DNA of 27,080 bases from a virus (taxonomy: Duplodnaviria > Heunggongvirae > Uroviricota > Caudoviricetes): the IMG/VR virus record IMGVR_UViG_2645728048_000018. One strand, 5' to 3'. The position numbers were made by a program, and so were the translations under genes. This document shows positions 25,401-26,065 of the stretch, in pieces. Positions within the stretch are counted from its first letter, which is position 1, and every line of letters begins with the position of its first letter. A model generated the notes under the pieces. That model had not been told where the DNA came from. It made no database searches and saw only the letters and a list, made by a program, of their open reading frames with translations.

Positions 25401-25727
25401 TCAGTGTGCAGAAGGACTAAAGATAAACGTTTTCTTCACGCCTTTACACGGCCTGTCCTTCTCAAATCGCCATTTTGCCATCGCCTTTACAACCTGCTCA
25501 TCAAACAGATGGTGCGGCTCTGAACGAATAAACTCAATTCGGGTGACAGTACCATCAGCACCAATATCAAACCTCACATCAACCCGTCCCTTTATATAAT
25601 TTGCCGCTGCATAGGCCGGATATTGTGGTAATGCCTTAACCAACTGTCGGGGCATATCTGTTTTATGTTGCGTACAGCCCATAACCAGAGAAGACAACAA
25701 AATAATTAACGGAAGATTTCTTTTCAT
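25401..25727 (-). CDS. Lipoprotein consisting of a TonB C-terminal-domain-like fold (moron in the bor/cor position)
   Basis: Probable start at 25727 (MKRNLPLIILLSSLVMGC, lipobox-like signal). The mature part (LPQYPAYAAANYIKGRVDVRFDIGADGTVTRIEFIRSEPHHLFDEQVVKAMAKWRFE) aligns with the E. coli TonB CTD ([28 protein letters not shown]...FEREVKNAMRRWRYE). There is no proline-rich spanning region or N-terminal anchor helix. Confidence 0.65.
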   Translation of the reverse strand: MKRNLPLIILLSSLVMGCTQHKTDMPRQLVKALPQYPAYAAANYIKGRVDVRFDIGADGTVTRIEFIRSEPHHLFDEQVVKAMAKWRFEKDRPCKGVKKTFIFSPSAH

Positions 25728-25747
25728 TTTCATTCCCCGCACAGATA

Positions 25748-25764
25748 AGAATAAGTCTTATTCT
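25748..25764 (-). promoter_or_regulatory. Perfect 8-1-8 palindrome AGAATAAG-T-CTTATTCT upstream of the TonB-CTD lipoprotein gene (candidate operator)
   Basis: Seen directly 21-37 nt upstream of the start codon, overlapping a TAGAAT -10-like hexamer. The AT-rich hexamer repeats loosely resemble a Fur-box. Confidence 0.4.
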
Positions 25765-26065
25765 AACAATGCCGCCCTGTCGGTCATCAATCCTCTGCTT
25801 AATGGCAACGACAATTATCCGACTTAAATCACAAATCAGACACATGACATAACAGGGCTTGCGAGGTAACACATCGTCCTGTTTCTTCCACCATCGCACC
25901 GGACTGGCGACTATGAGGGGACAACGCCGCGCTCCGTTAACGCGGTAAACCCCGGTGTGTATCGTTTTTGATTATCCCCGCACACTCGCGCAGAGGAGTC
26001 TCCCTGTCGGGCTGCGGTCTCTGTTAATGAGGGAATACAGCGACGATACGGCGCATCAGCAAAAC

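What the first reader, a model, noticed from the sequence alone, without database searches (positions are those of the whole stretch)
25401..25770. Prophage lipoprotein that is essentially a free-standing TonB C-terminal domain, in the bor/cor moron slot, behind a perfect palindromic operator
The ORF downstream of Rz/Rz1 encodes a lipoprotein whose mature part aligns with the TonB C-terminal domain (shared PQYPA...G.V.V.FD...DG.V...F...V..AM..WR.E pattern) but has no proline-rich spacer or N-terminal membrane anchor. In lambda and phi80/N15 this slot holds lysogen-expressed morons (bor, cor), and Cor excludes FhuA-dependent phages. A periplasm-facing, lipid-anchored TonB-CTD mimic could bind the TonB boxes of TonB-dependent receptors and block TonB-dependent entry of competing phages or colicins; that role is my hypothesis, not a known function. 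The 8-1-8 palindrome AGAATAAG-T-CTTATTCT over a TAGAAT -10-like hexamer suggests repressor control, possibly iron/Fur-type.
Basis: partly seen in the sequence, partly recalled or inferred. Interest (0 to 1): 0.78.

Follow-up and report, generated by a model that had tools for sequence, protein, structure and literature searches.

The report
Prophage lipoprotein copying TonB's C-terminal domain
A lambdoid prophage carries a small outer-membrane lipoprotein that is just the receptor-docking end of the bacterial TonB protein; it is widespread, already annotated, has never been studied functionally, and probably jams TonB-dependent uptake.

Summary
On the minus strand, 25727..25401 encodes a 108-aa protein: signal peptide, lipobox Cys18, a 7-residue tether, then a complete TonB C-terminal domain (Pfam 9e-15; model 1.0 A rmsd from E. 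coli TonB). It has no membrane anchor and no proline-rich spacer. It lies after Rz/Rz1 and before terminase, and is AT-rich like a moron.

It is not a new gene. RefSeq calls it "TonB family protein". This allele is in 418 and the phage 21 allele in 1225 of 5426 complete E. coli genomes. I found no functional study.

New here:
- It belongs to a family of 104-133-aa TonB-domain lipoproteins across Enterobacterales, both chromosomal and prophage-borne.
- Thirteen of 21 family loci have a Fur-box match of 14-17/19 directly upstream.

The 8-1-8 palindrome is real and overlaps a promoter-like -10. It is missing from the phage 21 allele, is unique in the prophage, and overlaps only a 13/19 Fur-like site. 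"Operator" is therefore unproven, and Fur control is supported only indirectly.

Most likely mechanism (inferred, about 0.45): an outer-membrane-tethered decoy binds TonB boxes and blocks TonB-dependent entry of phages, colicins and siderophore drugs. Cor does not occupy this slot.

The parts
25401..25727 (-). CDS of the 108-aa TonB-CTD lipoprotein (WP_000828071.1, 'TonB family protein'); 25401-25403 is the stop codon
   Evidence: ORF. RefSeq start at the second ATG. M1 is invariant in the family alignment. dN/dS is 0.115 against the phage 21 allele.
25674..25727 (-). Signal peptide and lipobox (MKRNLPLIILLSSLVMG|C18); the +2 residue is Thr, which predicts outer-membrane sorting
   Evidence: Cys18 is invariant. 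A lipobox is present in 32 of 32 family members, and the +2 residue is S, T, A or V, never Asp. Sorting follows the Lol +2 rule (established knowledge); lipidation was not tested.
25416..25652 (-). TonB C-terminal domain (residues 26-104, equivalent to E. coli TonB 153-231), including the YP motif and the beta3 strand that pairs with TonB boxes
   Evidence: Pfam PF03544 9.1e-15. PDB TonB chains about 1e-15. AF2 pLDDT 95-99 across the domain. Foldseek hits 1u07, 2gsk_B and 2grx_C at rmsd 1.0-1.1 A and TM 0.89-0.92.
25735..25738 (-). Shine-Dalgarno-like GGGG, 7 nt before the ATG at 25727
   Evidence: Read directly from the sequence.
25748..25764 (.). Perfect 8-1-8 palindrome AGAATAAG-T-CTTATTCT
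   Evidence: Perfect in 75 of 80 near-identical IMG/VR alleles. Its right arm is absent from the phage 21 allele. No second copy in the prophage.
25744..25762 (.). Fur-box-like 19-mer GATAAGAATAAGTCTTATT (13/19 to GATAATGATAATCATTATC)
   Evidence: P is about 0.03-0.04 per 100-150 nt. Homologues carry 14-17/19 at the equivalent position.
25760..25787 (-). Sigma-70-like promoter candidate ATGACC-16 nt-TAGAAT with an upstream TG (extended -10)
   Evidence: This is a consensus match only; such sites occur at the chance rate in this region.
26066..26536 (-). Rz i-spanin, with Rz1 o-spanin embedded at 26128-26313. This is the upstream neighbour on the same strand, and no terminator-like site lies between it and the gene.
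   Evidence: PF03245 7.7e-50 and PF06085 1.7e-21. No terminator found.

Best explanation
Shown:
- The gene is a prophage moron encoding a small lipoprotein. [quoted passage not shown]
- It lacks everything that links TonB to the ExbB-ExbD motor.
- It belongs to a conserved Enterobacterales family of such lipoproteins. Many family members sit behind near-consensus Fur boxes.

Inferred:
[quoted passage not shown] There the domain hangs within reach of the periplasmic face of TonB-dependent transporters.
- It pairs its free beta3 edge with exposed TonB boxes, on receptors and possibly on incoming group B colicins, but cannot pull.
- It therefore competes with TonB and damps TonB-dependent import. 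The lysogen would become less sensitive to TonB-dependent phages (T1 and phi80 types), group B colicins, microcins and siderophore-linked antibiotics, at some cost in iron uptake.
- Expression probably comes both from its own promoter-like site, possibly iron-responsive, and from late-operon read-through.
For: Domain identity:
- Sequence matches.
- The model superposes on free and receptor-bound TonB CTD at about 1 A.
- The aromatic and YP signature residues of TonB (Y163, P164, F180, F202, W213, F230) are kept (alignments).

Location and reach:
- A lipobox is present in 32 of 32 family members, the +2 residue is never Asp, and tethers are 6-15 residues.
- The TonB box pairs with beta3 of the CTD, and on substrate binding the BtuB TonB box projects about 20-30 A into the periplasm (review PMC11658791).

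Precedents:
- TonB fragments 33-239, 103-239 and 122-239 expressed in the periplasm inhibit the TonB system (bioRxiv 10.1101/2020.01.05.895219).
- T5 Llp is an outer-membrane lipoprotein that jams FhuA from the periplasm (PMC9586334).

Selection and spread:
- dN/dS is 0.115.
- The two alleles are in 418 and 1225 of 5426 E. coli genomes.
- The gene sits in the same slot after the spanins in E. coli, Klebsiella and Serratia prophages that have different terminases.

Link to iron and TonB physiology:
- Fur boxes of 14-17/19 lie upstream of 13 of 21 family loci, in at least 8 genomic contexts. The background P(>=14) is 0.0045 per 150 nt.

Moron character: GC is 43% against 55% for the window.
Against: - There is no experiment on this protein or on any family member. 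No paper was found.
- Fur-controlled induction of the chromosomal homologues under iron starvation is awkward for a pure inhibitor of iron uptake.
- TonB residues implicated in receptor contact differ: Q160 becomes Leu and R166 becomes Tyr, and the Tyr is near-invariant in the family.
- Transporters are very abundant, so a decoy would have to be made in large amounts.
- This allele's own Fur-like site is weak (13/19), and the phage 21 allele has none (10/19).
- The prophage's own J C-terminus is lambda-J-like, so its receptor is unknown and self-exclusion cannot be argued.
- No PADLOC match.
Confidence: 0.45

Rival explanations
1. TonB sequestration. [quoted passage not shown] It would inhibit the same processes, but by titrating TonB rather than capping receptors.
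For: Receptors are highly abundant; that TonB is far scarcer is my own knowledge. Titrating TonB is therefore stoichiometrically easier. E. coli TonB CTD crystallises with two chains per entry (1u07, 1ihr), and published CTD dimers are known to me from memory. The domain is 38% identical to host TonB, with the core residues kept.
Against: There is no direct evidence. The functional form bound to receptors is monomeric in 2gsk and 2grx (one search hits). The last four TonB residues (236-239), which from memory form part of the strand used in the 1u07 dimer, are missing because the protein ends at the equivalent of TonB 235.
Confidence: 0.15
2. Helper or traffic controller of iron uptake. Made together with the transporters under iron starvation, it would occupy the TonB boxes of idle receptors, or stabilise them, so that limiting TonB is used efficiently. 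Prophages would carry it as a fitness factor, not as a defence.
For: Near-consensus Fur boxes lie upstream of chromosomal members in Serratia, Klebsiella/Raoultella, Erwinia and Pantoea. Those members sit in stable non-phage contexts.
Against: The protein has no link to an energy source. The only experimental precedent for free TonB CTD in the periplasm is inhibition. It was repeatedly captured in a prophage lysogenic-conversion slot next to bor. The common phage 21 allele has lost any Fur-like site.
Confidence: 0.2
3. Lysis or envelope accessory. As a late-operon lipoprotein, it would bind peptidoglycan or outer-membrane proteins and modulate spanin action or envelope stability.
For: It is on the same strand as Rz/Rz1 with no terminator-like site between them. 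PHROG 1267, which it matches at 4.7e-42, is labelled 'Rz-like spanin'. Reported peptidoglycan affinity of the TonB CTD is from my memory and was not checked.
Against: Complete Rz and Rz1 are already present. The protein has none of the features of a spanin. Family members sit in chromosomes far from any lysis genes. The PHROG label looks positional.
Confidence: 0.05
4. Inert remnant: a decaying fragment of a captured tonB gene, as the old annotation 'partial tonB-like membrane protein' implies.
For: Annotation wording in some phage records.
Against: dN/dS is 0.115 with synonymous sites near saturation. It has a purpose-built signal peptide and an invariant lipobox Cys in 32 of 32 members down to 33% identity. 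The ORF is annotated as an intact CDS ('TonB family protein') in every listed match, with most of the query matched in 414 and 1221 genomes.
Confidence: 0.02

Closest known systems
TonB (E. coli energy transducer), C-terminal domain residues about 150-239
   Same: Same fold and clear homology: 38% identity, about 1 A rmsd, and the YP motif, core aromatic residues and beta3 edge strand are all present.
   Different: It has no N-terminal transmembrane helix and no Pro-rich spacer, so it has no ExbB/ExbD coupling. It is lipid-anchored at the opposite membrane. R166 becomes Tyr and Q160 becomes Leu. It ends 4 residues early.
Engineered periplasmic TonB fragments (33-239, 103-239, 122-239) that inhibit the TonB system
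   Same: A TonB C-terminal domain uncoupled from the motor and placed in the periplasm. This is the mechanism proposed here.
   Different: Those fragments are artificial, soluble and over-expressed, and they retain part of the spacer. This protein is natural, outer-membrane-tethered, under purifying selection, and only 38% identical to host TonB.
Phage T5 Llp (and BF23 Llp): outer-membrane lipoproteins that inactivate FhuA or BtuB
   Same: A small phage lipoprotein on the periplasmic side of the outer membrane acting on a TonB-dependent transporter.
   Different: The fold is unrelated. Llp binds the plug of one specific receptor and works allosterically. A TonB-CTD decoy would be generic for all TonB boxes. 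Sequence similarity to Llp was not tested.
Cor (phi80, N15, HK022): FhuA-directed superinfection exclusion
   Same: A prophage-expressed small envelope protein that blocks FhuA-dependent phages.
   Different: There is no sequence similarity. Cor lies after the tail-tip gene, not after Rz.
Bor (lambda, phage 21): lysogen-expressed lipoprotein moron after Rz
   Same: Same genomic slot and the same kind of product, a small outer-membrane lipoprotein. Phage 21 carries both genes side by side.
   Different: There is no sequence similarity. Bor is on the opposite strand and is linked to serum resistance, not to TonB.
Dedicated TonB paralogues HasB and FusB
   Same: They have divergent TonB C-terminal domains that recognise TonB boxes (Foldseek hits 7zc8 and 2m2k).
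   Different: They keep the inner-membrane anchor and transduce energy. This protein cannot.

Membership tests
TonB_C domain (Pfam PF03544 / TIGR01352) | Profile match above the curated cut-off | tested here: met
   PF03544 scores 55.3 bits against a cut-off of 24.6. TIGR01352 scores 55.1 against 27.1.
TonB_C domain (Pfam PF03544 / TIGR01352) | The TonB-CTD fold with a free beta3 edge strand | tested here: met
   The AF2 model has pLDDT 95-99 over the domain. Its elements are E28-30, H38-42, E47-55, E61-70, H76-83 and E94-103. It superposes on 1u07, 2gsk_B and 2grx_C at rmsd 1.0-1.1 A.
TonB energy transducer (NCBIfam PRK10819 equivalogs) | N-terminal transmembrane anchor that couples to ExbB/ExbD | tested here: not met
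   The N-terminus is a cleavable lipoprotein signal peptide. The equivalog models match only their C-terminal 80 positions, at 49-74 bits against cut-offs of 265-448.
TonB energy transducer (NCBIfam PRK10819 equivalogs) | Proline-rich periplasm-spanning spacer | tested here: not met
   Only 7 residues (TQHKTDM) separate Cys18 from the domain.
Bacterial lipoprotein | Signal peptide ending in a lipobox with an invariant Cys | tested here: met
   The sequence is MKRNLPLIILLSSLVMG|C. A PROSITE-type lipobox is present in 32 of 32 family members, and the Cys column is invariant.
Bacterial lipoprotein | Actual lipidation and outer-membrane localisation | not testable with these tools
   This is predicted from the +2 residue, which is Thr here and S, T, A or V in the family, never Asp.
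Phage moron | Non-essential insert between conserved modules, with deviant base composition | tested here: met
   The gene lies between the lysis cassette and the terminase genes. It has been swapped among phages with different terminases. GC is 43.4% against 54.7% for the window.
Phage moron | Own promoter and terminator, with expression in the lysogen | tested here: inconclusive
   There is one promoter-like site with an extended -10, at the chance rate for this region, and no terminator-like site on either side. No expression data are available.
Fur regulon | Fur box overlapping the promoter | tested here: inconclusive
   This allele reaches 13/19, with background P(>=13) = 0.03, and 9/14 against the 7-1-7 form. 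Homologues reach 14-17/19 in 13 of 21 loci. Fur binding was not tested.
Spanins (PHROG 1267 label 'Rz-like spanin') | An i-spanin (transmembrane helix plus coiled coil) or an o-spanin (short Pro-rich lipoprotein embedded in or following Rz) | tested here: not met
   The globular domain is TonB_C. True Rz and Rz1 are present upstream.
Cor / Bor lysogenic-conversion lipoproteins | Sequence homology | tested here: not met
   BLASTP finds no alignment with N15 Cor or with phage 21 Bor.
Known anti-phage defence proteins (PADLOC-DB) | Profile match | tested here: not met
   No family matched at E <= 0.01.

The most novel reading that the evidence does not exclude
The gene represents a natural 'anti-TonB' lipoprotein family. 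A lipid-tethered TonB C-terminal domain caps TonB boxes from the outer-membrane side. Because it acts on the shared TonB box, one small gene would give lysogens broad protection against TonB-dependent phages, group B colicins, microcins and siderophore-conjugated antibiotics such as cefiderocol. This allele is in 418 and the phage 21 allele in 1225 of 5426 complete E. coli genomes. In many family members the gene would be tuned by Fur to the level of receptor expression.
Probability: 0.35. Interest if true: 0.85.

Novelty: new variant of a known kind. Interest (0 to 1): 0.6.

Why it matters
TonB-dependent transporters are the entry gates for iron, vitamin B12, many phages, group B colicins and siderophore antibiotics. 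If it works as proposed, a mobile 108-residue protein that blocks the shared TonB box would be a generic exclusion mechanism, unlike the receptor-specific Cor and Llp. It would also be a hidden cause of strain-to-strain differences in phage, colicin and possibly cefiderocol susceptibility. The chromosomal members with Fur boxes additionally suggest an unrecognised regulator of the TonB system itself. All of this can be tested with standard plating, killing and uptake assays.

Tried and rejected
- **Prophage CI/Cro operator.** The palindrome has the right 17-bp size for a lambdoid operator. However, no second site with 4 or fewer mismatches exists anywhere in the 36-kb prophage of strain EcPF7, including its immunity region. 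Rejected.
- **Palindrome as a conserved regulatory element.** It is perfect in 75 of 80 IMG/VR relatives, but those are 97-100% identical overall. In the 71%-identical phage 21 allele a 13-nt indel removes the right arm. It is not deeply conserved.
- **Palindrome as a canonical Fur dyad.** It matches only 9/14 of the 7-1-7 form, and the 19-mer best match (13/19) is centred 3 nt away from the dyad. The resemblance is weak.
- **RNA element.** No Rfam match in 24300-27080 at E <= 1.
- **Known defence system.** No PADLOC hit.
- **Homology to Cor or Bor.** None.
- **Recent capture of the neighbouring host tonB.** In EcPF7 the prophage sits about 3 kb from tonB, but identity to the host TonB is only 38%.
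- **Self-exclusion through the phage's own receptor.** The J C-terminus is lambda-J-like (54%) and closest to VT1-Sakai-type J (89%). The receptor is unknown, so nothing can be concluded.
- **Viral structure library.** No TonB-like fold at E <= 0.001.
- **AFDB Foldseek.** The library was unavailable.
- **Literature.** Nine full-text searches found no functional study. The original paper on periplasmic TonB fragments was not held.
- **Complex prediction.** Modelling the protein with a TonB-box peptide was not possible, because only window or database sequences may be submitted.
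Full report
**1. What is in the sequence**

The ORF is on the minus strand. The ORF listing reports 25401..25742 from a GTG. RefSeq annotates the second in-frame ATG, giving 25727..25401 and 108 aa, under accession WP_000828071.1 'TonB family protein'. The family alignment has an invariant Met at that position, and a GGGG lies 7 nt upstream of it.

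The product reads MKRNLPLIILLSSLVMG|C18-TQHKTDM-P26...H108. Upstream on the same strand are Rz (PF03245, 7.7e-50) and the embedded Rz1 (PF06085, 1.7e-21). Downstream are a convergent DUF3950 (YlcI/YnfO) gene, an HNH endonuclease gene and the small terminase subunit gene, followed by the gene homologous to the one annotated as large terminase subunit in phage JLK-2012. The window is therefore the late region of a lambdoid prophage. An identical 601-bp stretch (100% identity over the gene and its flanks) with the same flanking genes lies next to ompW in E. coli EcPF7.

**2. The protein is a lipid-anchored TonB C-terminal domain**

- Pfam TonB_C matches at 9.1e-15 and TIGR01352 at 7e-15. The NCBIfam 'TonB' equivalog models match only over their last 80 or so positions and fall far below their cut-offs.
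- phmmer against PDB sequences finds E. coli and Salmonella TonB CTD chains at about 1e-15. Residues 26-104 align without gaps to TonB 153-231.
- Identity to the host strain's own TonB is 38%.
- An AlphaFold2 model built on a 32-sequence family alignment has a mean pLDDT of 85.8. The domain scores 95-99; the low values come from the signal peptide.
- Foldseek places the model on 1u07, 2gsk_B (TonB bound to BtuB) and 2grx_C (TonB bound to FhuA) at 1.0-1.1 A rmsd, with target TM-scores of 0.89-0.92. TolA domains come far behind.
- With an offset of +127, the TonB signature residues P161, Y163, P164, F180, G186, F202, W213 and F230 are all present, and Y215 is replaced by Phe. Q160 is Leu33, R158 is Lys31 and R166 is Tyr39. 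Tyr39 is near-invariant in the family.
- The chain ends at the equivalent of TonB 235.
- There is no transmembrane anchor and no proline-rich spacer.
- All 32 aligned family members have a lipobox with an invariant Cys. The +2 residue is S, T, A or V, never Asp, and the tether before the domain is 6-15 residues.
[quoted passage not shown] Lipidation itself was not tested.

**3. It is a functional, widespread, already annotated gene**

- The window allele occurs in 418 of 5426 complete E. coli genomes, always under the name 'TonB family protein'.
- The 71%-identical phage 21 allele occurs in 1225 of 5426.
- Only 15 of 50,697 phage records carry the gene. All are temperate: Stx1a phages, JLK-2012, Lys8385Vzw, phage 21, ev017, Perceval and a Klebsiella phage. 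Their labels range from 'TonB C-terminal domain protein' to 'partial tonB-like membrane protein'.
- Between the two E. coli alleles dN/dS is 0.115, with dS about 1.7. The gene is therefore under purifying selection and is not a decaying fragment.
- Its GC content is 43.4% against 54.7% for the window.
- It sits between the lysis cassette and the terminase genes in phages with HK97-like (HNH plus TerS/TerL) and lambda-like (Nu1/A) packaging modules. That is typical of a moron.
- Phage 21 carries bor and this gene side by side.
- Cor is not in this slot. In N15 it follows the tail-tip gene.

**4. A family beyond E. coli prophages**

An exhaustive HMMER search found 170 proteins at E <= 1e-10. 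Among the best are proteins of 104-133 aa with the same architecture. A profile search named hosts in Rahnella, Salmonella, Pantoea and Erwinia. Where a source gives a name it is generic ('TonB family protein' or 'hypothetical protein').

Genome loci show two kinds of context.

- **Chromosomal.** In Klebsiella and Raoultella the gene lies between a LacI-type regulator, a glycine-zipper protein gene and a DUF1440 gene. Serratia grimesii, Erwinia, Pantoea agglomerans and Salmonella each have other contexts.
- **Prophage.** In Serratia montpellierensis the gene lies directly after a lysozyme, a DUF2570 i-spanin-like gene and a LysC/Rz1-like gene. In Klebsiella phage ST13-OXA48phi12.4 it lies after the lysis genes.

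The same slot has thus been used in three genera by proteins only about 35-45% identical to each other.

**5. Fur boxes**

I scanned the 150 nt upstream of each family gene for the consensus GATAATGATAATCATTATC.

| Locus | Context | Best match | Distance before the start |
|---|---|---|---|
| S. grimesii | chromosome | 17/19 | 45 nt |
| Serratia montpellierensis | prophage, between Rz1 and the gene | 16/19 | 46 nt |
| Erwinia typographi | chromosome | 16/19 | 11 nt |
| Pantoea agglomerans | chromosome | 16/19 | 17 nt |
| Six Klebsiella/Raoultella orthologues | chromosome | 15/19 | 3-7 nt |
| Three further loci | chromosome | 14/19 | 6-35 nt |

Among 1322 background 150-nt windows from the same loci, P(>=14) is 0.0045 and none reached 16. 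Thirteen of 21 loci, in at least eight unrelated genomic contexts, therefore carry a Fur-box-like site where it would occlude the promoter. This is strong sequence evidence that the family belongs to the iron-starvation regulon. Fur binding itself was not tested.

The window allele reaches 13/19 (GATAAGAATAAGTCTTATT, 25744-25762), with P about 0.03-0.04. The Klebsiella phage reaches 12/19, Salmonella 11/19 and the phage 21 allele 10/19.

**6. The palindrome**

AGAATAAG-T-CTTATTCT at 25748-25764 is perfect. It overlaps TAGAAT of a promoter-like site, ATGACC-16-TAGAAT, that has an extended -10 TG.

- About 0.33 palindromes of this geometry are expected per window. P is about 0.015 for one falling in this intergenic region.
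- It is perfect in 75 of 80 IMG/VR alleles, but those are near-identical overall.
- In the phage 21 allele a 13-nt indel removes the right arm.
- It has no second copy in the prophage, which argues against a CI/Cro operator.
- Its dyad centre is 3 nt off the centre of the Fur-like 19-mer, and it fits the 7-1-7 Fur form poorly, at 9/14.
- No terminator-like site lies between Rz and the gene, so late-operon read-through is also likely.

Whether anything binds the palindrome is unknown.

**7. How it most likely works**

Established:
- The TonB CTD alone binds the TonB box of transporters by parallel beta-augmentation on beta3.
- The BtuB TonB box extends 20-30 A into the periplasm when substrate binds (review PMC11658791).
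- TonB fragments 33-239, 103-239 and 122-239 expressed in the periplasm inhibit the TonB system (bioRxiv 10.1101/2020.01.05.895219). From my own knowledge the original work is Howard et al., J Bacteriol 2001; that paper was not held.
- T5 Llp shows that a small outer-membrane lipoprotein can jam a TonB-dependent transporter from the periplasmic side (PMC9586334).

Inferred:
[quoted passage not shown] It can bind them but cannot pull.
- It should therefore compete with TonB and damp TonB-dependent entry of phages, group B colicins (which carry their own TonB boxes), microcins and sideromycins.

I put this at about 0.45.

Rivals:
- Titration of TonB itself through CTD-CTD pairing (0.15).
- A helper or traffic-control role in iron uptake (0.2). 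This is suggested by the Fur boxes and the chromosomal members.
- A lysis or envelope accessory (0.05). The PHROG 1267 label 'Rz-like spanin' looks positional, because true Rz and Rz1 are present.
- An inert fragment (0.02). This is excluded by the selection signal.

The main tension for the decoy model is that the chromosomal homologues should be induced just when iron uptake is needed. That fits a tuned shield or a helper better than a simple blocker.

**8. Comparison with what is known, and novelty**

- The protein contains a bona fide TonB_C domain but fails the defining features of a TonB energy transducer, namely the anchor and the spacer.
- It is unrelated in sequence to Cor and Bor.
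- It matches no PADLOC defence model and no Rfam family.
- The viral structure library holds no significant TonB-like fold.
- Nine full-text searches found no functional study. The only mention found is a 'putative TonB-like protein' in a comparative-genomics list.

The gene is therefore known as an annotation, but its architecture-defined family, its Fur association and its function are undescribed in what I could search. I class it as a new variant of a known kind.

**9. Verdict**

Interest is 0.6. The hypothesis is well founded, cheap to test and broadly relevant. It rests on inference only, and the gene itself is ordinary in databases.

Noticed in passing
window 24448-24569: Five of the window's eight GTTAAC sites cluster within 120 bp just upstream of the small terminase gene. 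They include a perfect 18-bp palindrome, CAGTTAACATGTTAACTG, at 24552-24569. These are probably terminase or cos recognition repeats.
   Followed up: partly
window 20115-20132: A perfect GC-rich inverted repeat, GGGAGGCG-CA-CGCCTCCC, lies near the 3' end of a long minus-strand ORF (20149-22086). It could be a terminator or a structural element.
   Followed up: no
L006 (E. coli EcPF7, NZ_CP054232.1 4960000-4996527): A prophage carrying an identical copy of this gene region (100% over 601 bp) is integrated next to ompW, about 3 kb from the host tonB gene. The prophage protein is only 38% identical to host TonB, so the proximity is probably coincidental.
   Followed up: partly
L003 277-903 and 3968-4336; L089 5998-6333 and 6749-7312: Klebsiella phage ST13-OXA48phi12.4 carries a DUF1440 membrane protein gene about 3 kb from its TonB-CTD lipoprotein gene. 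In Klebsiella and Raoultella chromosomes the lipoprotein gene is adjacent to a DUF1440 gene. The phage may have captured a host segment.
   Followed up: no
window 25401-25727 (PHROG 1267): The PHROG family that this protein matches at 4.7e-42 is labelled 'Rz-like spanin'. The domain is TonB_C and real spanins lie upstream, so the label looks like a positional misannotation.
   Followed up: yes
window 25069-25269 (+): The convergent DUF3950 (YlcI/YnfO) protein has a sequence pattern (IRFPNHMIEQINIAL...FSAWVIEACRRRL) that reads to me like a ribbon-helix-helix DNA binder. Whether it binds the nearby palindromes was not tested.
   Followed up: no
window 25870-25960 versus L002 (phage 21) 2780-2880: The region upstream of the gene (ACACACCGGG...CCGGTGCGATGGTGGAAGAAACAGGA) is nearly identical between this prophage and phage 21, although synonymous sites in the coding regions are saturated. 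This suggests a mosaic recombination boundary just upstream of the promoter. The short upstream ORFs differ in length and are probably not genes.
   Followed up: partly
window 26535-26905 (-): Three very small ORFs with hydrophobic stretches lie upstream of Rz. The endolysin homologous to the one in EcPF7 lies beyond the window end. RefSeq lists these ORFs as hypothetical proteins.
   Followed up: no
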